This document shows, piece by piece, positions 4,054 to 54,329 of a stretch of 64,000 nucleotides of DNA. Each line of letters opens with the position of its first letter. Position 1 is the first letter of the stretch. The DNA comes from Candidatus Merdicola faecigallinarum. GTDB lineage: Bacteria; Bacillota; Clostridia; TANB77; CAG-508. The notes beneath the pieces were generated by a model. It did not search any database and was not told where the DNA came from. It worked only from the letters and a program-made list of their open reading frames with translations. The translations under genes and the position numbers were made by a program. The stretch is from contig DVNH01000010.1 of NCBI GenBank assembly GCA_018714565.1, positions 4,563 to 68,562 on the forward strand, given 5' to 3'.

Positions 4054-4162
4054 TTTCTCCTTTCTAACTATTCTTATATTATATACTATTTTGACATATT
4101 TGCAAGCAAAACAGATCGACAATTAATAAGATTTTTTTACTTTTTCGTTATATTTTTACTCT

Positions 4163-4272
4163 ATAAAAAAAGTGGCTTTGCCATATGTACAGATTGCTTT
4201 GCAATCGCACAGGCTAAGGTGACTTAAGCTTGTTGCTCCAGAAAAATCTGTCGATTTTTCCTATGCAATAAG
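4163..4272 (+). repeat. Copy 1 of a ~110-nt structured interspersed repeat (tandem with copy 2)
   Basis: Begins AAAAAGTGGCTTTGCCATATGTACAGATTGCTTTGCAATCGCACAG and ends TTTTTCCTATGCAATAAG. It lies between the acpP 3' end and the rnc start. Confidence 0.7.
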
Positions 4273-4377
4273 AAAAGTGGTCATATGTACAGATTGCTTC
4301 GCAATCGCACAGACTGATGTAACTTAACCTTGTTACTTCAGAAATTTCTAACGAAATTTCCTACGTAATAAAAAAAG
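4273..4377 (+). repeat. Copy 2 of the ~110-nt structured interspersed repeat
   Basis: AAAAGTGGTCATATGTACAGATTGCTTCGCAATCGCACAGACTGATGTAACTTAACCTTGTTACTTCAGAAATTTCTAACGAAATTTCCTACGTAATAAAAA. It shares more than 90% identity with the copies at 24.7, 37.5 and 61.9 kb. Confidence 0.7.
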
Positions 4378-4415
4378 AAAGGTATATCCTTCTATGATAC
4401 CCCTTTCATATTTTC

Positions 4416-4655
4416 CTATACATTTTCTTTTATATAGTCTACTACATCGCTAACAGTAACGATTTTTTCTGCATCTCCATCTGGAATTTCCATATCAAAT
4501 TCTTCTTCTAAAGCCATAATTAATTCAACAATATCTAAAGAATCTGCTCCTAAATCGTCGATAAAAGATGCTTCCATTGTTACTGATGTGTCTGCAACAC
4601 CTAATTGATCTACGATAATTCCTTTTACTTTTTCAAAGATTTCTTCTGAACTCAT
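4416..4655 (-). CDS. acpP: acyl carrier protein
   Basis: 79-aa ORF containing [20 protein letters not shown] with the phosphopantetheine-attachment Ser. A GAGGAGGTG RBS precedes it. Confidence 0.92.
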
Positions 4656-5959: not shown

Positions 5960-7162
5960 TTATTCAATAATATCAGCAACAACACCTGAACCTACTGTTC
6001 TACCACCTTCACGAATAGCGAATCTTAATCCTTTTTCGATAGCAATTGGTGTGATAAGTTCGATTGTCATGTCAATGTTATCTCCTGGCATAACCATTTC
6101 TGTTCCAGCTGCTAATTCAATAACACCTGTAACGTCTGTTGTTCTGAAATAGAATTGTGGTCTATATCCATTGAAGAATGGTGTATGTCTTCCACCTTCT
6201 TCTTTTGTTAATACATATACTTGTGCTGTGAATTTTGTATGTGGATTAATTGTTCCTGGTTTTGCAAGAACTTGACCTCTTTCAATTTCTGTTCTTTGGA
6301 TTCCTCTTAAAAGAACTCCGATATTATCTCCAGCTTCAGCTTGATCTAATAATTTTCTGAACATTTCTACACCTGTAACAACAGTTTTCTTTCTTTCTGT
6401 TGTAAGACCGATGATTTCAACTTCGTCTTGGATTTTTACAACTCCTCTTTCTACTCTACCTGTTGCAACAGTTCCTCTACCTGTGATAGAGAATACGTCT
6501 TCAACTGGCATTAAGAATGGTTGATCGATTGGTCTTTCTGGTGTTGGGATATAGCTATCAACAGCATCCATTAATTCTTTCATTGGTGCATATACTGGAT
6601 CGTTAGGATCTGTTGATGTTGATTCTAATACTTGTAATGAAGATCCTTTTACAATTGGAATCTCATCTCCTGGGAAGTCATAGCTTGATAATAAGTCTCT
6701 AACATCCATTTCAACTAATTCTAATAATTCTGGATCATCAACCATATCGCATTTATTTAAGTAAACAACGATATATTTAACACCAACTTGTCTTGCAAGT
6801 AGGATGTGCTCTCTTGTTTGAGGCATTGGTCCATCAGCTGCAGAAACAACTAAGATTGCTCCGTCCATTTGAGCAGCACCAGTAATCATGTTTTTAACAT
6901 AGTCAGCATGTCCTGGGCAGTCAACGTGAGCATAGTGTCTATTTTCTGTTTCATATTCAACGTGAGCTGTGTTAATTGTAATTCCTCTTGCTTTTTCTTC
7001 TGGAGCACCATCAATTTGATCATATGCTTCAAATTGAGCTCTTCCTAATAATGATAAATATTTTGTAATAGCTGCAGTTGTTGTTGTTTTACCATGGTCA
7101 ACGTGTCCGATTGTACCAATGTTAACGTGTGGTTTTGTTCTTTCAAATTTTGCTTTAGCCAT
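5960..7162 (-). CDS. tuf: elongation factor Tu
   Basis: 400-aa ORF with [26 protein letters not shown] and the DCPGHADY GTPase motifs. An AAAGGAGG RBS precedes it. Confidence 0.97.
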
Positions 7163-37533: not shown

Positions 37534-37648
37534 TATAAGAAAAGTGGCTTCGCCACATGTACAGATTACTTCGTAATCGCACAGACTAAGGTAACTTAAC
37601 CTTGTTGCTCCAGAAATTTCTTTCGAAATTTCCTATGCAATAAAAAAA
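37534..37648 (+). repeat. Copy 4 of the ~110-nt structured interspersed repeat
   Basis: TATAAGAAAAGTGGCTTCGCCACATGTACAGATTACTTCGTAATCGCACAGACTAAGGTAACTTAACCTTGTTGCTCCAGAAATTTCTTTCGAAATTTCCTATGCAATAAAAAAAGC. It lies between the mscS stop and the nadD start. Confidence 0.7.
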
Positions 37649-38813: not shown

Positions 38814-38874
38814 TATAAGAAACTTAGGCCTTGTTGCTCCAGAAATTTATATCGAAGTTTCCTATATAATAAGA
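38814..38874 (+). repeat. Truncated copy 5 of the structured repeat (central ~50 nt deleted)
   Basis: TATAAGAAA + CTTAGGCCTTGTTGCTCCAGAAATTTATATCGAAGTTTCCTATATAATAAGAA. It keeps both element ends but lacks the two GAA-triloop hairpins. Confidence 0.55.
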
Positions 38875-46050: not shown

Positions 46051-49000
46051 TTATAATATAGCTTCTATTTCATAAATTTTTCCATCATCCATTAACTTTA
46101 CTTGCGTTTCTTCTCTTTCCATTCCATTTATTCTTAGTCTGGCAATTCCCGTATTTTTCTTTTCCGGATTTTTTATAGTAATTTTATACTTTGTTTTCCC
46201 ATATTGGTATGAAATTTTGTACTCCTCCCATTCCTTCGGAATACATGGTTCTATTCTTAAAAATCCATTTTTTACTTTTAATCCTAAAATATATTCTATC
46301 CCTGCCAAATAAAGCCAACTACTTGAACCGGTATACCATGTCCAACCTCCACGACCAGCTAAATTTTGAGCTCCATATACATCCGCTGCAACTACATACG
46401 GCTCTACTTTATATTTCTGTGCCGCTTCTTTCGTTCTTGCATGTTCAATTGGATTAATCATTTTAAAGAATTCAAATGCTTTTTCTCCAAATCCTAGCAT
46501 GGCTTCTGCAATAATTGCCCAAATTGCTCCATGGGTATATTGTCCTCCATTTTCTCTTACCCCTGGCAGATAAGACTTTATATATCCTGGTTTTAGTTTT
46601 CCTTTATCAAATGGTGGATCTAATAGTTTTATAATTCCGTTTTCTTTATCTACTAAATGATTTTCTAAACTTTCCATAGAAATATATTTTTTATCATTAT
46701 CTCCTGCTCCGGAAATAACGGACCAACTTTGAGCAATACTATCAATTCTACATTCTTCGTTTTCTATACTACCTAAAATTTGTCCATCATCCATAAATGC
46801 CCTTTTAAACCATCTTCCATCCCAAGCATTTTTGTTTAAAGCTTTTTTCAAGTTTTGAATAATTTCCTCATAGGTATTTGCTCTTTCTTCTTCCCCTTTT
46901 TCCTTTATGATTGGGATAAAATCTTTTAGTATTTTATATAAGAAAAATCCAAGCCATACACTTTCTCCTTTTCCTTTTGGTCCTACATTGCTTAAACCAT
47001 CATTCCAATCTCCAGATCCAATTTTAGGAAGTCCATTCTCTCCAAATTTCAAAGATCTTTCAATTGCTTTGATACAATGCTCATAAATGTTTCCTTTCTG
47101 GTCTGTTTCTAAAAATAAATCATATTTTTCAATTTGATTTTCTTCCAGTAAGTTACCTTTCAAATAGTTGGTTTCAATTTCTAAAATTTGCTTATCTCCT
47201 GTTGTTTTAATATATTCTTCTACCAAATATACTAACCATAGTAAATCATCTGAAAATTTAGTACGTATTCCTCTTTTGGTTTCTGGATGCCACCAATGTT
47301 CTACATCTCCTTCTATAAATTGATGTTTACTTTGCTCTATAATCTGCTCTTTCATAAACGTTGGATCCATATATTTTAGTCCTAAAGTATCTTGCAGTTG
47401 ATCTCGGTAGCCAATTGCTCCTCCAGATTGATAGTATCCTGTTCTTCCATATAATCTTGATACAATGATTTGATAAATAAGCCATCCATTTAATAATATA
47501 TGAAATGATTCTAATGGTGTTTCTACCTGTACTCGACTTATTCTATCCTGCCAATATTTTTTCACATTTAAAAGTTCTTGCTTACAATTTGACAAGTTCG
47601 AATATTGATAAGCAATATTTTTCATATCTAATAAGTTTTCCTCTTCTCCTAAACAAATTGAAAATTCTTTTCTTTCATATGGTTCTAATTCCATTTCAAA
47701 TTCAATTGCAATACAAGAATCTTGCCCTAATCCGTCTTCACAATCCAAAGACACTTTATGAATTCCTACAGGATTTTGCAAACCCGAATTTCCTAGAAAG
47801 AATTTCTTATTTCCTGTATAAGAATGAATTTCTTCACTACATGTAATATAAACTTTCCTTTGTTTTGGATCATCTGTATATAAGTTTTGTGCGTAAACAA
47901 TATTATTTTCTTTTTTTACCTGTATATTTCCATTGGTTTTTAATTCATCTTCTCCTAGCACAGCCTTCACATAATAGAATATTTTCAGTTTTTTCTTCTT
48001 AGGAAGCGTATTTTTTAAAGTAACCTTATTTATTTTTATCTTTTCTTCTCTAGGAACAAAAATTTCTGCTTGTTGTATGATTCCTAAAGAAGTATGCTCA
48101 TATTTGGCATACCCAAAACCATAAGTAATATAATAATCACTTTTATCTGGCATTGGTCTACTTCCTAAAGACCATGCTTTTCCATTTTCTAAATCTTTTA
48201 AATAAATAATTTCAGATGGTATGTCAAAACATGGATTATTGTTCCAGGCAGAAATTCGATTTAGTCTACTATTATCAGACCAAGTATATCCTCCCATTCC
48301 TTCTGTTAATACCGTTCCGAAATGTTTATTTGCAAGAATATGACTCCATACAGTTGGAAGTTTAGAATCCTCATTTACTTTTATTACATATTCTTTTCCC
48401 TCATTAAAAAAAGCACCATATTCATTATAATATTGGATTGGTTTACTAGTTTGAATTTGGTCAAGTTCATTTCCTCTTATCATTTCTTCTTCTAAAACAA
48501 TCTGTTTTGCTTCAATATTTCCTATATTTTTTATACTATTTTTGTAGTTTTCTTGCATTTGTTCTAATTGAGATTTTAAATTTCCCCAATGTGCATCTAT
48601 TTTTAAATTGCTCCTATATTCTAATATTTCTTTATCTTCTTTACTTAATTCATATTCATTTAGTACAAAAATTCCTGCTTTTCTATTTTTTAAATAAGAT
48701 AAATGCCTATTTAAAATTGCATTTTCGATTGCTTCTTTTACATATTGCTCATAACTATATTTTTCTTGATTTAAAATTACAAGTTCAATCTCTATATTTT
48801 TAATTTTTAAATACTCATAAATTTTTAGTAATTCTTCTATCACATAAATATCATTTGCATCCCTTATTTTCACTAACAAAATTGGATCATCTCCGGAAAT
48901 TCCAAATTTCCATAGTTCCTCTTGCTTATATTTTCTTTTTGCATAAGAAGAGATATATAATTTTTTCATTGGATTTTGTTTGATTAAATAAGAAAGAATT

Positions 49001-52000
49001 TCTTGCGATGCTTCTATTTCTTTTCCACTTAATTCTAAATATCTTGCCTCTTCAATACTTTTGGCTTTTACTAATTCAAATGTCTTTTTGATTTTTTCTT
49101 CACTACTATATTTTTGGATTAATGGAATAATTTCTTCTTCCTTATTCCCCGCTACTAAAATAAGTTGAAAAGAAATTTTATCATTTGGTTTAATTCTTAC
49201 TGTTCTTTTCATTGCAACTGCAGGTTCTGTTACTAATCCCATACTTTTTGAAAAAGTATTCGAATGTTCTACTTTTTGTGGTAGTCCTAAATTACTTCTT
49301 CCATAAAATTTTTCTCGATCAATTTCATATTCCAATTCTCCAATTGTTTCATTTTCTGTATATAAATTTACTCCTAAAAATAGATTCTCTCCACTTTCTT
49401 CTCTTGGCCTTCTTTCTATAATGATACTATTTGTCTCTTCCTCTCGATGGTAACGTAAAAATAAATTATTAAAAGCCATATGAGAAACATCTTGTGCTTG
49501 TGTAGACAAAACTGGTTCAAAATATCCTGTTATTTCTAATAAAGCTTCATTGTTTCCATGATTCTCTATTTCTAAATTCCTAATTTCAACTGGTTCGTTT
49601 GAAGCAACTGTAATTTTCGTTCTTGTTTCGAGATCTCCGTCCATTCGATCAATTTTAATTGAATCTGATGAAAAATATACTTTATATTGATCCGGTTTCG
49701 GAAGATAACTCATATGGTTAGAAGTCCAAATTCGTTTGGATTGAACATCTTTAATATAAAAGAAAATACCTTGATCTAAATCTGCGGTTTCTTTATAACG
49801 ATTAATATAATAATTCTTATATTTACTATAGCTTTCTCCTTTTTGATTGCAAACAATAGTATAATTTTCATTTGCAATGACACAGGATTGATCTGAATGT
49901 TCATCAATTTTTGTGTATACCTTTTCAAAATAACTTTGTGAATCTTTGTAAATCAATTTTTCTGGTTTCTCCTTCTTTTCTTTTGTAATAATAACATTTT
50001 CTGGCATCCTTTCTTGTAAAAGTATTTCCATAGATCTTATTTCCGGATTTTTCATAAATCTCTTTTGCAAAATATTTTTTTGAAATAAATTATTCAAAGA
50101 TAATAAGATAAGTCCTTGATGATGTGCCATAAATGTTTTTACTACCGCTTTTGTTTCTCCATATTTTAGCCTATTACTTGTATAATCAATTGCTTCATAC
50201 ATACCATATCTTCCCATAATACCTTCTTGCTCTAGTCTTTTTATATTTTCCAATACTTCTTTTGGATAATCGGTAATAGCAAGAACACTTCCATAAGAAG
50301 ATACTACTACTTCATCGGCAAGGCCCCTTTTTAACCCTAGCCATGGAATACCAAATGCTTTATATTGATAATTTCCATTTAAATCTTTTAGATTGAAAGC
50401 AGACTCTGAAATTCCCCACGGAATTTTTAAACTTTCACTATATTGCATCTGGCTCATTACCATAAAATGACAAGATTCATCTAGCAAACTTCCTGGATAT
50501 TTTGGAATATTAATATTCGGCATTAAATATTCAAAGGCTGTTCCAGACCATGAAATTAGTCCTTGATACTTCCCAAGAGTAGTTAATGTTCTACTTAAAT
50601 TATTCCAATGTTTTACTGGTACATCTTTTTTGCTAATTGCAATTAAACTTGCTTGTCTTGCTTCTGATGCTAATAGATCATAATAAGAATCTGTTAATTT
50701 ATTTTCTTCTACATTAAACCCTATTGAGAAAATTCTTTTCTCTTTATGATACAGAACGGAAAAATCCGTTTGTTTAATAAGATGATCTATTTTCTCTATC
50801 ATAAATGAAATTTGTTCTAAATTTTTCTCCTTATGCTCTTCTAGAAATTTTTTTAATACATATAAATATCCAATAAAATTCCCACTATCTACAGTAGAAA
50901 TATATCTTGGAACTAGTGGTTCTAATGTTTTGATTTCATACCAATTATATAAATGTCCATTCCATTTACTCAGACTTTCAATTGTATTTAACATATTTGA
51001 AATAAGCTGGATCGTATCCTCTAAAGTCTCAAATCCTAGATCATAACTGGATACAGCAGCTAAAAGTCCAAGTCCGATATTAGTAGAAGAGGTTCTGTAT
51101 ACCCATTTTTCTTTACGATTTTCCTGATAATTATCCGGTGGTAAATAATTTGTTTTTTCATTTAAATTTTCTTTAAAATAATTCCATGTTTTTTTCCCTA
51201 TTTCTAATAAATAGTTTCTTTCTTCTTCTGTTAACATTTCTATTTTTTCGATTTGCTTTTTTTCCTTACTAATTTTATAAGCAAGATATGGAGAAAGAAT
51301 CCATAATAAACTAAATATTGTTATTACTATTTTTCCTAAAGTAGGAAATGACATAAGTGCAAATAGCAATATAAAAATAGAAAAGAGAATCGAAAACCAC
51401 ATACTTTTGTAATAAGACCATACATCCGTCTTCGCATTTTTTTCTGCTTCTTCTGCAGTTGTCCATTCTAATAGATGTTTTTTGCTAACCGTTTTTCGGT
51501 AAATTGTTTTGACAATAGCATCTAGTGAAACCCAAGCTTTATATGGAAAAAAGGCAAAATTTAAAATCATTCTTGTCCAATCACCATGATATCCATTCAT
51601 CACAGGAGAAAACATTTTTTGTAATTTTTCTCCATCTTTTTTATGAACGACGCGATTTATTATTTCTAAGATCATTGGTATGGTAATTGCTACAAATGAA
51701 ATAAGAAAAAATGGAAAAGTACTGATTGAATCGATAGTTTCTAAAAAGAAAGAAAATAAAAATAATAATACACAACTTATTTCTAACATGCTTCTTCTTA
51801 AATTATCTAAAATCTTATATTTGGATAATAGATTAAGCGGATTCTTTTTTTTGTTTCCATTTTTATCTATTATTTTATTCTTTACCCACTTACTAATTTG
51901 CCAATCTCCTCGAATCCATCTATGAAGCCTACTCATGAAACTATTGTATTTGCAAGGATATCCATCCATTAATAAGATATCTGATGCAAGTCCGCATCTT

Positions 52001-54225
52001 AGATAACAGCCTTCTAGTAAATCATGACTTAGTACCGTATTTTCTGGTATTTCATTTTTTAGCACTTGTTCGAAAACGGAAATATCATAAATACCCTTTC
52101 CTGTAAAAATTCCTTCTCCAAAATTATCTTGGTAAACATCCGAGATGGCATTGGTATATAAATCCGTTCCTCCACTACCTGCAAAAATTTTAGTAAATAA
52201 AGTTTTTCGACTGGTAATAAGGTCAATTCCTACTTTTGGTTGAATAAGAGCATGTCCTTCTACTACTATATTTTTTTCTTTATCCAAAACAGGCTTATTT
52301 AGAATATGAGCCATTGCTCCTACTAACTCAAAAGCAGAATTTAATACTAAATCGGTGTCTGCATCTAAGGTAATTACATATTTTATTTTAGGAATTTCTT
52401 CTCCATAATCTTCTATTGTATTTACGATAAAATCAGAAGGTTCCTTTTCTAAGATATAACGATTAAATTGATTTAACAATCCCCTTTTTCTTTCCCAACC
52501 TAAATACGAGCCTTCTCCTTCATTCCATTTTCTTGTACGATAAAGAAAATGAAATTTAGGAAAGAAACGATCTTCATATTTTTTATTTAATTCTTTGGCT
52601 AGCTCTTTTCCCAAATTTATGATTTCTTCATCTTTTTTTACCGTTTTTTGGTCTTCACTAGTACAATCTCCAAGTAGAGTAAAATATAAATTTTCTGTTT
52701 GATTTGCTAAATAATATACCTCTAATTTTCCAAATAAATCTTGAAGTTTTTCTTTAGAATTAATAATGGTAGGAATTACTACCATAGTTGCATTTTCTTT
52801 TTCGATTCCATTATAAAAGTCCATTTTAGGAATTAGTTTTGGTTTTATTGTCTTATTTAAAATTTGTTGTACAATCTGCAAAATAATTTCTGAAACTGGA
52901 ATGAATGTAAAAAGAAACATCAATATAGCAAAAATTCCATTTGTTTTTTCATAAGTATATATTCCACTAAATAAGCTAATAAAAAAACTAATTATATAAA
53001 TACAAGAAATATACCATTTTACTTTTGTATTTTGTTTTATTATATGTTTTTTTACGCCTAATACTTGATACAGAGTTTCTTTTCCTTCATCGATTAAATA
53101 ATAACCAATATGTGCTTTTTTTTCTTTTCCTGTGTTATTTGGTGAAGTTTCGAATACTTTTTCTTCTCTATCTTCTTTAGCTTTTTCTGCTAAATCTATC
53201 ACTTTCTTTGCGATATACATTTCTGATATTTTACTTTTTTTAGCAGTTTCTTTAATTTGATTTCGATAATATTCTTTTGTTTTATAATCCATAAACTCAT
53301 AAACATTAGCGGGATCTTTTTTTAATATTTCTTCTACTCCATTAATTTTTTCAAAAATTTCTAAAAAATTAATGCGATTCATTTCTTTTAAACTACGAAT
53401 GCTATTTCCCATGCTTACTCTACGAAGAGCAATGTCAAAATGCTCTTTTTGGATTACATCCGATACTGTGGTTCCAATTTTATTTACTTGTTCTTCTAAT
53501 GCATCTAAATACCCATATGCCTTTTTCCCTTCTTTTTTTAGGCGATAAGACATATATTCAATAAATGGATATTTCATTTCTCCAAACCCAAATTTTTGTG
53601 TTTTATAATTTTTATCTAATTTAAATTCTTGGTTTTCTTTTCCCTCAATAATTCTCTCAATGATATTTTCTACTTTATATTTCTGCATTTGACTGGAATA
53701 AATCTTTTCGCAAATTTCTGCAATATTTTCGATTAATGCAATTTGAATAAAAAGTCCTATATTCCATATTTCATCCATGTTTAAATATTTTTTGTTTTGG
53801 TAGGCTTGTAACATATAGGTTAGATTTTCACTATTAATCTGGCTATCCGTATAAGCGCACATCTGAACAGCTAAAAAATAAATTCTTGCTACTCCTTTAT
53901 AAGGTCCATTTTCAAGTCCTAAAAAGTTTTTATATTTTTTTAATGTTAATTCATGTTGCAAACTCTTTACTGTTTCTTCTATTATATAATAATTATCTAA
54001 GATCCACTCTCCTGCCGGATGAATGTGAATTCCTAATTTTAAATGAGTATTTAATAAATAATATACCTTTGTAATAAAATTAAAATTTTCTATCATTCTA
54101 GGAATGGGATAAGATTCTTTATCCGATCTACTTTTTAATACATTATCCGATGCTAATTTTTCTAGGTAATTTTCTAATTGTTGCTTATCTAATGCGGTTC
54201 CTTTTACATTCCATGTTCCAAACAT
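46051..54225 (-). CDS. cyclic beta-1,2-glucan synthase-like protein (Cgs/ChvB/NdvB architecture: N-terminal cytoplasmic region, TM-embedded GT-A glycosyltransferase domain, C-terminal GH94 phosphorylase)
   Basis: 2724-aa intact ORF with TM clusters around residues 380-470 and 800-1000, a GT-A DxD motif (VITLDADTDL) and a C-terminal GH94 cellobiose-phosphorylase-like region (...GIEYILGLKV...). AGGAGA RBS. Confidence 0.75.
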   Translation of the reverse strand: MFGTWNVKGTALDKQQLENYLEKLASDNVLKSRSDKESYPIPRMIENFNFITKVYYLLNTHLKLGIHIHPAGEWILDNYYIIEETVKSLQHELTLKKYKNFLGLENGPYKGVARIYFLAVQMCAYTDSQINSENLTYMLQAYQNKKYLNMDEIWNIGLFIQIALIENIAEICEKIYSSQMQKYKVENIIERIIEGKENQEFKLDKNYKTQKFGFGEMKYPFIEYMSYRLKKEGKKAYGYLDALEEQVNKIGTTVSDVIQKEHFDIALRRVSMGNSIRSLKEMNRINFLEIFEKINGVEEILKKDPANVYEFMDYKTKEYYRNQIKETAKKSKISEMYIAKKVIDLAEKAKEDREEKVFETSPNNTGKEKKAHIGYYLIDEGKETLYQVLGVKKHIIKQNTKVKWYISCIYIISFFISLFSGIYTYEKTNGIFAILMFLFTFIPVSEIILQIVQQILNKTIKPKLIPKMDFYNGIEKENATMVVIPTIINSKEKLQDLFGKLEVYYLANQTENLYFTLLGDCTSEDQKTVKKDEEIINLGKELAKELNKKYEDRFFPKFHFLYRTRKWNEGEGSYLGWERKRGLLNQFNRYILEKEPSDFIVNTIEDYGEEIPKIKYVITLDADTDLVLNSAFELVGAMAHILNKPVLDKEKNIVVEGHALIQPKVGIDLITSRKTLFTKIFAGSGGTDLYTNAISDVYQDNFGEGIFTGKGIYDISVFEQVLKNEIPENTVLSHDLLEGCYLRCGLASDILLMDGYPCKYNSFMSRLHRWIRGDWQISKWVKNKIIDKNGNKKKNPLNLLSKYKILDNLRRSMLEISCVLLFLFSFFLETIDSISTFPFFLISFVAITIPMILEIINRVVHKKDGEKLQKMFSPVMNGYHGDWTRMILNFAFFPYKAWVSLDAIVKTIYRKTVSKKHLLEWTTAEEAEKNAKTDVWSYYKSMWFSILFSIFILLFALMSFPTLGKIVITIFSLLWILSPYLAYKISKEKKQIEKIEMLTEEERNYLLEIGKKTWNYFKENLNEKTNYLPPDNYQENRKEKWVYRTSSTNIGLGLLAAVSSYDLGFETLEDTIQLISNMLNTIESLSKWNGHLYNWYEIKTLEPLVPRYISTVDSGNFIGYLYVLKKFLEEHKEKNLEQISFMIEKIDHLIKQTDFSVLYHKEKRIFSIGFNVEENKLTDSYYDLLASEARQASLIAISKKDVPVKHWNNLSRTLTTLGKYQGLISWSGTAFEYLMPNINIPKYPGSLLDESCHFMVMSQMQYSESLKIPWGISESAFNLKDLNGNYQYKAFGIPWLGLKRGLADEVVVSSYGSVLAITDYPKEVLENIKRLEQEGIMGRYGMYEAIDYTSNRLKYGETKAVVKTFMAHHQGLILLSLNNLFQKNILQKRFMKNPEIRSMEILLQERMPENVIITKEKKEKPEKLIYKDSQSYFEKVYTKIDEHSDQSCVIANENYTIVCNQKGESYSKYKNYYINRYKETADLDQGIFFYIKDVQSKRIWTSNHMSYLPKPDQYKVYFSSDSIKIDRMDGDLETRTKITVASNEPVEIRNLEIENHGNNEALLEITGYFEPVLSTQAQDVSHMAFNNLFLRYHREEETNSIIIERRPREESGENLFLGVNLYTENETIGELEYEIDREKFYGRSNLGLPQKVEHSNTFSKSMGLVTEPAVAMKRTVRIKPNDKISFQLILVAGNKEEEIIPLIQKYSSEEKIKKTFELVKAKSIEEARYLELSGKEIEASQEILSYLIKQNPMKKLYISSYAKRKYKQEELWKFGISGDDPILLVKIRDANDIYVIEELLKIYEYLKIKNIEIELVILNQEKYSYEQYVKEAIENAILNRHLSYLKNRKAGIFVLNEYELSKEDKEILEYRSNLKIDAHWGNLKSQLEQMQENYKNSIKNIGNIEAKQIVLEEEMIRGNELDQIQTSKPIQYYNEYGAFFNEGKEYVIKVNEDSKLPTVWSHILANKHFGTVLTEGMGGYTWSDNSRLNRISAWNNNPCFDIPSEIIYLKDLENGKAWSLGSRPMPDKSDYYITYGFGYAKYEHTSLGIIQQAEIFVPREEKIKINKVTLKNTLPKKKKLKIFYYVKAVLGEDELKTNGNIQVKKENNIVYAQNLYTDDPKQRKVYITCSEEIHSYTGNKKFFLGNSGLQNPVGIHKVSLDCEDGLGQDSCIAIEFEMELEPYERKEFSICLGEEENLLDMKNIAYQYSNLSNCKQELLNVKKYWQDRISRVQVETPLESFHILLNGWLIYQIIVSRLYGRTGYYQSGGAIGYRDQLQDTLGLKYMDPTFMKEQIIEQSKHQFIEGDVEHWWHPETKRGIRTKFSDDLLWLVYLVEEYIKTTGDKQILEIETNYLKGNLLEENQIEKYDLFLETDQKGNIYEHCIKAIERSLKFGENGLPKIGSGDWNDGLSNVGPKGKGESVWLGFFLYKILKDFIPIIKEKGEEERANTYEEIIQNLKKALNKNAWDGRWFKRAFMDDGQILGSIENEECRIDSIAQSWSVISGAGDNDKKYISMESLENHLVDKENGIIKLLDPPFDKGKLKPGYIKSYLPGVRENGGQYTHGAIWAIIAEAMLGFGEKAFEFFKMINPIEHARTKEAAQKYKVEPYVVAADVYGAQNLAGRGGWTWYTGSSSWLYLAGIEYILGLKVKNGFLRIEPCIPKEWEEYKISYQYGKTKYKITIKNPEKKNTGIARLRINGMEREETQVKLMDDGKIYEIEAIL

Positions 54226-54329
54226 TTTATTTTCACTCTCCTAAAAGTTATGTATTTTTCTTTTAGGTTTTCCATGTTTGGTAAAATTTATACGATTTTT
54301 CCTATGCAATTAGAATATATTGATTATTT

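What the first reader, a model, noticed from the sequence alone, without database searches (positions are those of the whole stretch)
4160..4380. Novel ~110-nt highly structured interspersed repeat family (6 copies), always at the 3' ends of minus-strand genes and always in the same orientation
The copies are at 4163-4272 and 4273-4377 (a tandem pair), 24695-24808, 37534-37648, 38814-38874 (centrally deleted) and 61925-62047. The full-length copies are more than 90% identical. On the gene-sense (minus) strand each unit reads as three hairpins followed by a U-tract. The first is GGAAATTTC-gtta-GAAATTTCC (GAAATTTC is itself palindromic). The other two are GAA-triloop hairpins, GATTGC-GAA-GCAATC and GTGGC-GAA-GCCAC, followed by UUUUCUUAUU. 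The units are bounded by a direct repeat, TTCCTAYGYAATAA(G); the direct repeat is perfect at copy 6, which looks like a target-site duplication or a recombination module. All copies lie in short intergenic gaps inside co-directional gene runs: acpP|rnc, ftsW|murG, mscS|nadD, GH13|mscS and aspS|the spermidine-synthase-like gene. At 24.79 kb the element provides the ftsW stop codon. It behaves like a REP/BOX/RUP-type element or a mobile terminator or attenuator module. I do not recognise it as a described family.
Basis: seen in the sequence. Interest (0 to 1): 0.75.

Follow-up and report, generated by a model that had tools for sequence, protein, structure and literature searches.

The report
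Terminator-targeting miniature mobile repeat
The six repeats are real copies of a small, hairpin-rich, transposase-less mobile DNA element of uncultured gut Clostridia that inserts just after the T-run of transcription terminators, so it is an undescribed member of a familiar class of bacterial junk-like repeats rather than a new kind of regulatory RNA.

Summary
In detail: five ~100-105-nt units and one 54-nt short form lie on the minus strand, and none matches an Rfam family. The same family occurs in at least 18 species-level genome bins of uncultured gut Clostridia and in over 100 metagenome contigs. Hairpins H1 and H2 are supported by compensatory changes, and the window's minus strand is the folding strand.

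The element is mobile. Two orthologous empty sites exist. One intergenic spacer is filled in opposite orientations in different species. Tandem arrays of up to three units occur, and one copy sits in frame inside a gene. Insertion is always 3' of TTTT(T/C)TTAT, usually a terminator T-tract, and the right flank is not conserved. The unit ends in its own hairpin plus TTTTCTTAT, which recreates the target.

There are no terminal inverted repeats and no variable target duplication. An IS200-family element from similar gut and rumen metagenome contigs uses the same target and has the same end architecture. The best reading is a non-autonomous element of the IS200/IS605 (single-strand Y1 transposase) or REP type; the enzyme that moves it was not identified. 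An IS110-family element specifically inserts into its 5' hairpin.

The parts
4163..4267 (-). Copy 1, the downstream unit of the tandem pair between acpP and rnc. Hairpin 1 is of the AAAAATC type. The 3' end reads TTTTTTTAT.
   Evidence: coordinates taken from alignment A2
4268..4367 (-). Copy 2, the upstream unit of the tandem pair. It has a 5-nt deletion in hairpin 3. Its terminal TTTTCTTAT is the insertion site of copy 1.
   Evidence: The pair is fixed in 8 near-identical strains.
4368..4407 (-). Native acpP terminator: hairpin GAAAGGGGTATC..GATATACCTTTC followed by TTTTTTTAT. This is the target occupied by copy 2.
24696..24800 (-). Copy 3, between ftsW and murG. It inserted in the last codons of ftsW, after CCCTTTTTTAT. 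The ftsW stop TAG is at 24796-24794, inside the element. Hairpin 3 plus the T tract lie at about 24705-24717.
37535..37639 (-). Copy 4, between mscS and nadD, ending about 25 nt before the nadD start codon. Hairpin 3 is at 37544-37556.
   Evidence: The same spacer is occupied in L044 in the same orientation and in L025 in the opposite orientation.
38815..38868 (-). Copy 5, the short form. It has the 5' motif, hairpin 1 and the core ACAAGGCCTAAGT, and ends in TTTCTTAT. Hairpins 2 and 3 are absent.
61935..62039 (-). Copy 6, between aspS and the spermidine-synthase-like gene. Hairpin 1 is at 62005-62040, the core at 61986-62004, hairpin 2 at 61959-61982, hairpin 3 at 61944-61956, and TTTTCTTAT at 61935-61943.
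61924..61934 (-). Extra TACGTAGGAAA after copy 6.
62040..62078 (-). Native aspS terminator: hairpin at 62050-62078 followed by TAATTTTTAT. This is the target occupied by copy 6.
34172..34246 (-). A terminator (34208-34246) followed directly by a hairpin-1-only palindrome, TGTATAAGAAAAT..ATTTTCTTATACA (34172-34207). It is a small relative of the family.
54270..54308 (-). Solo 5' motif with a hairpin-1-like stem, TGCATAGGAAAAATCGTATAAATTTTACC, in the gap upstream of the 2724-aa ORF.
   Evidence: (D8)

Best explanation
The repeat is a non-autonomous mobile DNA element of the IS200/IS605 or REP kind: a palindrome-associated, transposase-less miniature element that a Y1 (HUH) single-strand transposase would move in trans.

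A unit of about 105 nt, read on its top strand (the window's minus strand), consists of:
- a 5' motif T(G/A)(C/T)(A/G)TAGGAAA that runs into a long hairpin, H1;
- a conserved unpaired core, ACAAGGTTAAGTTAC;
- hairpin H2, GTGCGATTGC-GAA-GCAATCTGTAC;
- hairpin H3, GTGGC-GAA-GCCAC;
- a 9-nt tail, TTTTCTTAT.

Shown: the unit integrates immediately 3' of TTTT(T/C)TTAT. In these AT-rich, gene-dense genomes that sequence is most often the T-tract of an intrinsic terminator or the spacer after a tRNA gene. The right flank is not specified. The unit's own 3' end is a hairpin followed by the same T-rich ...TTAT, so every insertion recreates a target.

Inferred: the hairpins are recognition structures on single-stranded DNA. 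Cleavage and joining occur at TTAT| on both sides, as in IS608-type elements.

Not identified: the enzyme itself. Candidates are an IS200-type TnpA, such as the co-resident 'ISy', or a RAYT-like Y1 protein.

A side effect in this window follows because all copies happen to lie in gene sense. Each adds a second terminator-like hairpin and U-tract behind acpP, ftsW, mscS, the GH13 gene and aspS. Whether that alters transcription is untested.
For: Mobility:
- Empty and filled orthologous sites. L028 reads ..TTCGCTTAT|AACTTCAT, where L006 reads ..TTCTCTTAT|[unit ending TTTTCTTAT]|TACTTCAT. L039 is empty where L003 is filled, after a terminator.
- One unit in L034 against three in tandem in L009, with the same right flank.
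- The mscS|nadD spacer is filled in opposite orientations in the window and in L025.
- Copies within a genome are 89% identical against 83% between genomes. Non-orthologous copies in one genome bin reach 98-99%.

Target:
- Over 91 independent sites, the left flank reads T.79 T.81 T.92 T.79/C.13 T.93 T.90 A.90 T.97. The right flank is at background composition.
- 21 of 38 sites directly follow a terminator-like hairpin, and 2 more follow a tRNA 3' end. The figure for unoccupied TTTYTTAT sites is 32%.

Architecture:
- There are no terminal inverted repeats (alignment A2).
- Hairpins begin 1-8 nt from the left end and finish 9 nt from the right end.
- H1 and H2 show compensatory changes: pair 20-52 is GC in 28 sequences and AU in 16; pair 21-51 is CG in 28 and UA in 23; pair 89-95 changes GC to AU six times. 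92% of cells are paired, against 30-45% when the partners are slid.
- G.T pairs outnumber A.C pairs 142 to 30, so one strand is the folding strand. Sense-strand folds are 3-7 kcal/mol more stable than antisense folds.

Direct parallel in similar gut and rumen metagenome contigs: the IS200-family element 'ISy' has a Y1 TnpA (PF01797). At 8 independent sites it sits 3' of a terminator hairpin plus T-run plus T(T/A/G)AT. It ends in a GC hairpin followed by TTATTAT|. In L163 a repeat unit is inserted exactly after that ISy end.

Other Y1 genes: RAYT-like genes occur in related contigs, and a decayed one lies 8 nt from a copy in L050.
Against: - No transposase gene with ends homologous to the unit was found. 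The ISy ends share only the target, the terminal TTAT and the general layout (nhmmer finds nothing at E<=10).
- The replication-linked orientation bias reported for IS608 and ISDra2 is not seen: 48 with and 35 against GC skew, and 29:33 in the first set.
- The conserved target is 8 nt long, more than the 4-5 nt typical of the family.
- TTAT on both sides cannot be told apart from a 4-bp target duplication by sequence alone.
- The intact RAYT-like genes are not flanked by the repeat.
- No strain-level polymorphism was seen at the acpP locus.
Confidence: 0.55

Rival explanations
1. The unit is a cassette moved by an IS110-family (bridge-RNA-guided DEDD) recombinase. It would excise as a circle whose junction, TTTTCTTAT|TGCATAGGAAA, recombines with T-rich ...TTAT|T targets. 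The model is the ssr9 module of ISPpu9, which spreads using that element's transposase.
For: - IS110 elements lack terminal inverted repeats and integrate site-specifically (PMC11208160).
- ISPpu9 forms circles that contain ssr9 alone (PMC12288879).
- The unit's right end mimics its target. The same is true of the co-resident IS110 element 'ISx', whose right end is TTTTATTTTCAAAGGAAA and whose target is TTTTTTATATTATAGGAAA.
- ISx forms transposase-less miniature derivatives in the same genomes (L047, L024, L003).
- This mechanism predicts no replication-strand bias, as observed.
Against: - The only IS110 element found crosses over 11-12 nt inside the unit, at GGAAA|AATCG, not at TTAT|. It uses the unit as a target, not as its own ends.
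- No IS110 element with TTAT ends was seen.
- This model gives no reason for helices kept by compensatory changes on one strand, unless the unit encodes an RNA.
Confidence: 0.15
2. The repeat is primarily a host-selected cis-acting RNA module (terminator, attenuator or 3'-end stabiliser) that has been copied between gene ends.
For: - All 6 window copies are in gene sense at gene 3' ends.
- H3 plus UUUUCUUAU passes a terminator scan.
- The structure is conserved, with covariation, on the sense strand.
- The tandem pair is fixed in 8 strains.
Against: - In other genomes about 40-50% of copies are antisense to both neighbours.
- Copies occur inside ORFs (L006) and next to tRNA genes.
- Most copies sit behind a terminator that already exists.
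- Orthologous sites lacking the element exist.
- Copy 2 has a broken H3.
Confidence: 0.1
3. The repeat is a classical MITE moved by a DDE transposase, with a 4-bp TTAT target-site duplication.
For: TTAT, or (C/T)TTAT, is present on both sides of nearly every copy. Its size of about 105 nt and its intergenic location are typical of MITEs such as RUP or Correia elements.
Against: - There are no terminal inverted repeats. The two ends are unrelated hairpins.
- Conservation extends 8 nt to the left and not at all to the right. This asymmetry is not expected from a symmetric DDE target.
- The position before the right-hand TTAT is C, an element-derived base, where the left-hand one is mostly T.
Confidence: 0.1

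Closest known systems
Non-autonomous IS200/IS605-family elements (palindrome-associated transposable elements) and IS200 itself
   Same: - Insertion is 3' of a T-rich tetra- or pentanucleotide.
- Specificity is on the 5' side only.
- There are no terminal inverted repeats.
- Subterminal hairpins lie on one strand at both ends.
- The right end is a hairpin, a short linker and then the cleavage tetranucleotide.
- An IS200-family element in similar metagenome contigs (ISy) has the same terminator T-run...T(T/A/G)AT target.
   Different: - No cognate transposase with homologous ends was found.
- The target is 8 nt long.
- The right-end tetranucleotide equals the target, so tandem arrays form.
- No replication-strand bias is seen.
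- The unit has three hairpins plus a conserved unpaired core.
REP/BIME/REPIN elements with RAYT transposases (Enterobacteria, Pseudomonas)
   Same: - Short structured extragenic repeats occur in tens of copies.
- An (A/G)TAGG motif lies directly 5' of a hairpin, like the REP GTAG.
- The architecture is modular and mosaic.
- The repeats are the dedicated insertion target of an IS110-family element, as REPs are for IS621, ISPpu9 and ISPpu10.
- RAYT-like Y1 genes occur in related genomes.
   Different: - The units are not inverted REP doublets. They are asymmetric, with three different hairpins, and form head-to-tail arrays.
- The intact RAYT-like genes seen are not flanked by the repeat.
- The host is an AT-rich Clostridia lineage.
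bcr1-bcr3 repeats of the Bacillus cereus group
   Same: They are Firmicutes interspersed repeats of 100-400 bp. Their mobility is linked to one or more TTTAT motifs at the ends, by a 'site-specific recombination-like mechanism' (PMC6542083).
   Different: The bcr1 elements are restricted to the B. cereus group, and their mobilising enzyme is also unknown.
ssr9 module of ISPpu9 (IS110 family, Pseudomonas putida)
   Same: It is a small non-coding module that propagates as a selfish element using a transposase supplied in trans, in a genome where the IS targets REPs.
   Different: The ssr9 module shares its end boxes with its IS. The unit here does not share ends with the IS110 element found.
RUP and BOX (Streptococcus pneumoniae), Correia elements, and Rickettsia palindromic elements
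   Same: They are about 100-nt structured intergenic repeats. Occasional in-frame insertion into genes, as in L006, resembles the Rickettsia elements.
   Different: Those with known mobility have terminal inverted repeats and TA-type duplications. They show no preference for terminator T-tracts.

Membership tests
IS200/IS605-type non-autonomous element | Inserted immediately 3' of a conserved T-rich tetra- or pentanucleotide, with specificity on the 5' side only | tested here: met
   Empty versus filled sites. Left-flank logo TTTT(T/C)TTAT over 91 sites, with the right flank at background.
IS200/IS605-type non-autonomous element | No terminal inverted repeats | tested here: met
   The 53-copy alignment A2 shows a 5' end TGCATAGGAAA and a 3' end GCCACTTTTCTTAT that are unrelated.
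IS200/IS605-type non-autonomous element | No target-site duplication | tested here: inconclusive
   TTAT occurs on both sides. It could be the flank target plus the element's own end, or a 4-bp duplication. The base before it differs: T on the left, C on the right.
IS200/IS605-type non-autonomous element | Subterminal imperfect palindromes at both ends that fold on one (top) strand | tested here: met
   H1 starts 1-8 nt from the left end and H3 ends 9 nt from the right end. Covariation in H1 and H2. G.T 142 against A.C 30.
IS200/IS605-type non-autonomous element | A Y1 (HUH) transposase whose own element has matching ends | tested here: not met
   The IS200-family ISy shares the target, the terminal TTAT and the layout, but has no homologous ends. 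The search covered only fetched loci, not whole genomes.
IS200/IS605-type non-autonomous element | Orientation bias relative to replication (top strand on the lagging-strand template) | tested here: not met
   48:35 and 29:33 relative to local GC skew. The window's 6 of 6 fit, but that is local. GC skew on fragments of 4-15 kb is only a proxy.
REP/REPIN-RAYT system | Conserved GTAG-type tetranucleotide directly 5' of the palindrome | tested here: met
   (A/G)TAGG precedes the inner H1 stem in nearly all copies. The REP sequences quoted in PMC11208160 end in ..GGCCTAC, which is GTAGGCC on the other strand.
REP/REPIN-RAYT system | Mobile unit is an inverted doublet of two REPs | tested here: not met
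   Units are asymmetric and arrays are head to tail.
REP/REPIN-RAYT system | Single-copy RAYT gene flanked by the repeat | tested here: inconclusive
   A decayed RAYT-like gene lies 8 nt from a copy in L050, with a fragment in L039. The intact homologues in L081 and L082 are flanked by hydrogenase genes, not by repeats.
DDE-type MITE (RUP, Correia and similar) | Terminal inverted repeats and a duplication of variable target sequence | tested here: not met
IS110-derived cassette (ssr9-like) | Ends identical to those of a resident IS110 element | tested here: not met
   The ISx junctions are ..ATAGGAAA| and ..CAAAGGAAA|, which lie inside the unit rather than at TTAT|.
Any Rfam 15 RNA family | Covariance-model score at or above the gathering threshold | tested here: not met
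   No hits in the whole window. Only noise was found in E-value mode on copies 1, 2 and 6, with best E 0.28 and scores far below threshold.
Intrinsic (Rho-independent) terminator | GC-rich hairpin directly followed by a U-tract | tested here: met
   H3 plus TTTTCTTAT is flagged in copies 3, 4 and 6. It is not flagged in copies 1 and 2. Termination activity cannot be tested here.
bcr1-type repeats | Sequence homology to the bcr1-bcr3 consensus | not tested
   No bcr sequence was available. Only the shared TTTAT end motif is known, from PMC6542083.

The most novel reading that the evidence does not exclude
The family may be the Clostridial counterpart of the REP world, arranged as three nested layers.

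1. A structured single-strand DNA element carries its own extended guide. The 5' motif ATAGGAAAA is complementary, allowing G.T pairs, both to its own right end TTTTCTTAT and to the T-tract target TTTTTTTAT. The core AAGG..AAGT pairs with ACTT.TCTT at the right end. This would turn every terminator T-tract into a landing site for a Y1 transposase supplied in trans.
2. The element in turn serves as the dedicated landing pad of a bridge-RNA IS110 element.
3. The host may keep sense-oriented copies as portable back-up terminators.
Probability: 0.15. Interest if true: 0.6.

Novelty: new member of a known kind. Interest (0 to 1): 0.4.

Why it matters
- It defines a previously uncatalogued repeat family. 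It is absent from Rfam and from the plasmid and phage collections searched, and no description turned up in the few targeted paper searches run. The family is common in a group of uncultured, low-GC gut Clostridia.
- The family will affect assembly, gene calling and operon prediction in those genomes. Examples are stop codons supplied by the element, in-frame insertions into genes, and extra terminator-like hairpins inside operons such as ftsW-murG.
- It gives a clean natural example of terminator T-tracts used as a transposon target by both an IS200-family element and a miniature element.
- It also gives an example of an IS110 (bridge-recombinase) element whose natural target is a specific motif of that miniature element. 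This is useful for anyone mining natural bridge-RNA target pairs.
- It does not open a new category of biology.

Tried and rejected
- **Rfam.** A whole-window search at gathering thresholds and E-value searches on copies 1, 2 and 6 found nothing real. A search on the ISx locus L058 also found nothing.
- **Phage or plasmid origin.** blastn against 72,556 plasmids and 50,697 phages gave no match, and a scan of viral contigs gave none.
- **Integron attC.** The core contains GTTAAGT, which fits GTTRRRY. However, there is no paired R''/R' arrangement, the neighbouring genes are housekeeping genes, and units occur in tandem. Rejected on reading the sequences.
- **Class C group II intron remnant.** These introns also target terminators, but the unit has no GUGYG 5' end or domain V/VI-like 3' end, and it is far too short.
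- **Small ORF.** Some copies would encode MFLCDCEAICTCGEATFLI. The window copies lack the ATG, and a 2-nt indel breaks the frame.
- **Long-range helix** between the core AAGGTTAAGT and the right end ACTTTTCTT. It is compatible with 5 indel-linked changes but is otherwise invariant, so it remains unproven.
- **Strain polymorphism.** An exact-protein look-up of AcpP returned only strains at least 99.75% identical, all carrying the tandem pair.
- **Search for an autonomous master copy.** The genome scan (51 loci), the metagenome scan (117 loci) and tblastn with IS110, IS200 and RAYT queries found no transposase bracketed by the unit's halves. The hits they gave were then confirmed by database homologues that carry Pfam PF01797.
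- **Hairpin rule.** My first automated terminator test mis-trimmed the T-runs and was replaced by the test. The rule is lax, since 32% of control sites pass it.
Full report
**1. The observation**

The window has 30% G+C, and nearly all its genes lie on the minus strand. The GC skew of the plus strand is -0.15 to -0.34 throughout.

The repeat finder recovers the family at all the stated places. A 28-nt core pattern matches five times, all on the minus strand, with none expected in shuffles. An nhmmer profile built from the five long copies finds all six.

Pfam confirms the neighbouring genes as acpP|rnc, ftsW|murG, mscS|nadD, GH13|mscS and aspS|a spermidine-synthase-like gene.

Refined unit limits are given in the parts list. 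Copy 5 (38815-38868) is a complete short form that ends at its own ...GTTTCTTAT, not a central deletion. Identity among the long copies is 81-95%. No Rfam family matches.

**2. Distribution**

One exact-pattern scan of one genome per species found 51 stretches. All are in uncultured Clostridia or 'Clostridium sp.' genome bins, plus one bin labelled Bacilli, giving 18 bins in total. None of them is the window's own species; the best flank identity is 77%.

The profile finds 68 copies in the first set and 137 in the second, of which 88 are full length. Phage, plasmid and viral-contig collections have none.

**3. Anatomy and structure**

Read on the window's minus strand, a unit has these parts:
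- T(G/A)(C/T)(A/G)TAGGAAA, running into a long hairpin H1. The inner stem is GGAAAAATC/GATTTTTCC (GGAAATTTC in the window) and the outer stem is TTGC/GCAA or TTGTATA/TATACAA.
- A nearly invariant unpaired core, ACAAGGTTAAGTTAC.
- H2, GTGCGATTGC-GAA-GCAATCTGTAC.
- H3, GTGGC-GAA-GCCAC.
- A tail, TTTTCTTAT.

On a 53-copy alignment, 92% of cells are paired, against 30-45% when the partners are slid. H1 and H2 carry compensatory changes: GC in 28 sequences against AU in 16; CG in 28 against UA in 23; AU to UA five times at each of two adjacent H1 pairs; GC to AU six times. H3 is weaker.

A long-range helix between the core and the tail is possible but almost invariant, so it cannot be tested.

G.T pairs outnumber A.C pairs 142 to 30. 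Sense folds are 3-7 kcal/mol more stable than antisense folds. The minus strand is therefore the folding strand. Both GAA loops sit in GCGAAGC, which I recall from the work of Hirao and colleagues as an unusually stable DNA mini-hairpin. That recollection is only a hint that the structure matters at the DNA level.

The family is modular. Variants swap H1, H2 or H3 for other hairpins (L003:3616, L009:6046-6215, L032, L040, and several). Shorter units with the same ends also exist (window copy 5; L039, about 1420-1459).

**4. It is mobile, and where it lands**

Two orthologous empty sites were found.
- L028 reads ..TTCGCTTAT|AACTTCAT, where L006 reads ..TTCTCTTAT|unit...TTTTCTTAT|TACTTCAT.
- L039 has a bare terminator plus TTTTTTTAT, where L003 carries a unit.

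Further signs of mobility:
- L034 has one unit where L009 has three in tandem, with the same right flank.
- The mscS|nadD spacer is occupied in the window and in L044 in one orientation, and in L025 in the other, although the flanking genes are only about 70% identical. These are independent hits on one hot spot.
- Copies are more alike within a genome (89%) than between genomes (83%). Non-orthologous copies in one bin reach 98-99%.

Over 91 independent sites the left flank reads T T T T/C T T A T, each position at 0.79-0.97. The right flank is at background composition.

About 60% of sites directly follow a terminator-like hairpin or a tRNA 3' end, against 32% of unoccupied TTTYTTAT sites under the same lax rule. 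The rest include coding sequence. In L006 a copy lies antisense and in frame inside an RluA/RluD-like gene, adding about 38 residues relative to the L028 orthologue. In the window, copy 3 entered the last codons of ftsW.

Because the unit ends in a hairpin plus TTTTCTTAT, it regenerates its own target. This accounts for the head-to-tail arrays (the window pair; L012 with three units; L009, L002, L005, L048). It also accounts for the '14-nt direct repeat', which is simply the first bases of the next, often truncated, unit.

**5. Orientation**

- In the first set, 22 copies are co-oriented with both neighbours, 20 are antisense to both and 9 lie between convergent genes.
- Against local GC skew the split is 29:33.
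- In the pooled set of loci of at least 4 kb it is 48:35 (my own rough binomial estimate is p about 0.2).

Orientation is fixed relative to the T-run, not relative to the gene. Many terminators are bidirectional, with an A-run before the stem and a T-run after it (for example L029).

Antisense copies often abut the stop codon of a convergent gene, because the reverse complement of the terminal TTAT, ATAA, contains a TAA stop codon.

**6. Mechanism**

The combination of features is the published signature of the IS200/IS605 family (PMC4227781):
- insertion 3' of a T-rich short motif;
- specificity on the 5' side only;
- no terminal inverted repeats;
- no variable duplication;
- one-strand hairpins close to both ends.

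A direct parallel turned up in similar gut and rumen metagenome contigs. In L163, an IS200-family tnpA is followed by its right end...CCACCCGTTTCACGGGTGGTTATTAT|, and a repeat unit begins at exactly that point. Full copies of this element, here called 'ISy' (TnpA proteins P0242, P0248 and P0249, all with Pfam PF01797), sit at eight independent sites. Every site is immediately 3' of a terminator hairpin plus T-run plus T(T/A/G)AT. The right end is constant: a GC hairpin followed by TTATTAT|.

So a Y1 transposase system with just this target and this end layout exists in the same ecological setting. What is missing is sequence homology between the ISy ends and the unit. The enzyme that moves the unit is therefore not identified.

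RAYT-like Y1 genes are a second candidate.
- A decayed one lies 8 nt from a copy in L050, and a fragment lies in L039. Its homologues carry PF01797, and one is named RayT by its source.
- The intact homologues sit inside a hydrogenase operon without flanking repeats.
- According to PMC5581495, Group 1 RAYTs occur in Clostridia and are only weakly associated with repeats.

The lack of replication-strand bias counts against the classical fork-coupled model. I put the Y1 reading at about 0.55.

**7. An IS110 element uses the repeat as its landing pad**

L033 carries a 5'-truncated IS110-family transposase (Pfam PF01548 and PF02371) inside a repeat copy. Full-length relatives, 413-424 aa and 83-87% identical, define 'ISx'. 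It has a left end of about 260 nt with a promoter-like TTGCTA-17-TATAAT.

At 13 independent ISx or mini-ISx sites, the left junction is ...T(A/G)TATAGGAAA| and the right end is ...TTTCAAAGGAAA|. The insertion point is the 5' arm of H1, either in canonical units (L073/L075, L033, L047/L024) or in H1-like mini-palindromes that follow T-runs.

The '5'-variant' copies that begin TTTTATTTTCAAAAGAAA|AATCG are units carrying ISx or a miniature ISx derivative. This mirrors the way IS621, ISPpu9 and ISPpu10 target REPs (PMC11208160; PMC12288879). It is also the basis for the rival model in which an IS110 recombinase moves the unit. The crossover points differ, however, so ISx itself is a parasite of the unit and not its driver.

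**8. What the copies do in this window**

All six copies are in gene sense. Copies 2 and 6 lie directly behind native terminators; copies 3, 4 and 5 do not. H3 plus the U-tract passes the terminator scan in copies 3, 4 and 6.

Copy 3 lies between ftsW and murG, and copy 4 ends about 25 nt before the nadD start codon. A polar or attenuating effect is therefore conceivable, but it is untested.

The acpP|rnc pair is identical in eight near-clonal strains. That shows neither selection nor mobility.

**9. Verdict**

It is a new member of a known kind of element: a REP- or IS200/IS605-type miniature mobile element with a preference for terminator T-tracts. It is not a new class of regulatory RNA. 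Interest is moderate.

Noticed in passing
window 24794-26010 (minus strand): The ftsW gene is split. Pfam profile positions 3-186 map to ORF 25360-26010 and positions 274-344 map to ORF 24794-25111. The frame changes between about 25,111 and 25,360. This is either a frameshift (pseudogene) or an assembly error.
   Followed up: partly
L052-L061, L070-L080; L033:2078-3017: An IS110-family element ('ISx', 413-424-aa recombinase, about 260-nt left end with a promoter-like TTGCTA-17-TATAAT) is inserted at 13 independent ISx or mini-ISx sites. Each is at ..T(A/G)TATAGGAAA|. An intact copy lies inside a canonical repeat unit in L073/L075.
   Followed up: yes
L047:1058-1246, L024:5637-5824, L003 about 2245-2320: Transposase-less miniature derivatives of ISx, made of left end plus right end and about 75-190 nt long, sit at the same GGAAA| site. 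Some are inside repeat units.
   Followed up: partly
L163:2-494, L202-L215: An IS200-family element ('ISy') inserts 3' of a terminator hairpin plus T-run plus T(T/A/G)AT at 8 independent sites. One site follows a tRNA gene's terminator (L207). Its right end is the hairpin CCACCCGTTTCACGGGTGG followed by TTATTAT.
   Followed up: yes
L081:2501-3052, L082:2501-2995; L050 about 6200-6615: A RAYT-like Y1 gene is embedded in an [FeFe]-hydrogenase-type operon, between 2Fe-2S thioredoxin-like and NuoF-like genes. The L081 copy carries an in-frame GC-rich GTAGG-hairpin insert (residues VGVAALGDP). The L050 paralogue has two such inserts and a frameshift.
   Followed up: partly
L017, L024, L037, L039, L040, L050 (exact matches); variants in L081, L082: A second, GC-rich REP-like repeat, GTAGGGGCGATTTTAATCGCCC, co-occurs with the AT-rich family in some genome bins. 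It is absent from the window.
   Followed up: partly
L006:7331-7445 versus L028 about 2942-2957: A repeat unit lies antisense and in frame inside an RluA/RluD-like pseudouridine synthase gene. It adds about 38 residues (VIRKVTSSHVQVALQPHESKKLNLVALEKSDDFSYAIRE), as Rickettsia palindromic elements do.
   Followed up: yes
window 4411-4422 (minus strand): The acpP stop codon TAG lies inside TGTATAGGAAAA, a copy of the family's 5' motif. It sits just upstream of the acpP terminator. This may be chance or an old remnant.
   Followed up: no
L007, L045, L011, L014, L179: Units sit directly after the encoded CCA end of tRNA genes. In L179 a unit ends flush against the 5' end of a tRNA gene.
   Followed up: no
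L033:3235-3300, L058, L072, L074, L078, L013: Another small repeat, ..AAATTTCACA(C/A)AAAATTGC(T/A)..GCAATTTT(T)CG.., recurs just downstream of hairpin-1-type palindromes.
   Followed up: no
window 46051-54225 (minus strand): A single 2724-aa ORF, not examined. The hairpin-1-like solo motif at about 54270-54308 lies just upstream of it.
   Followed up: no
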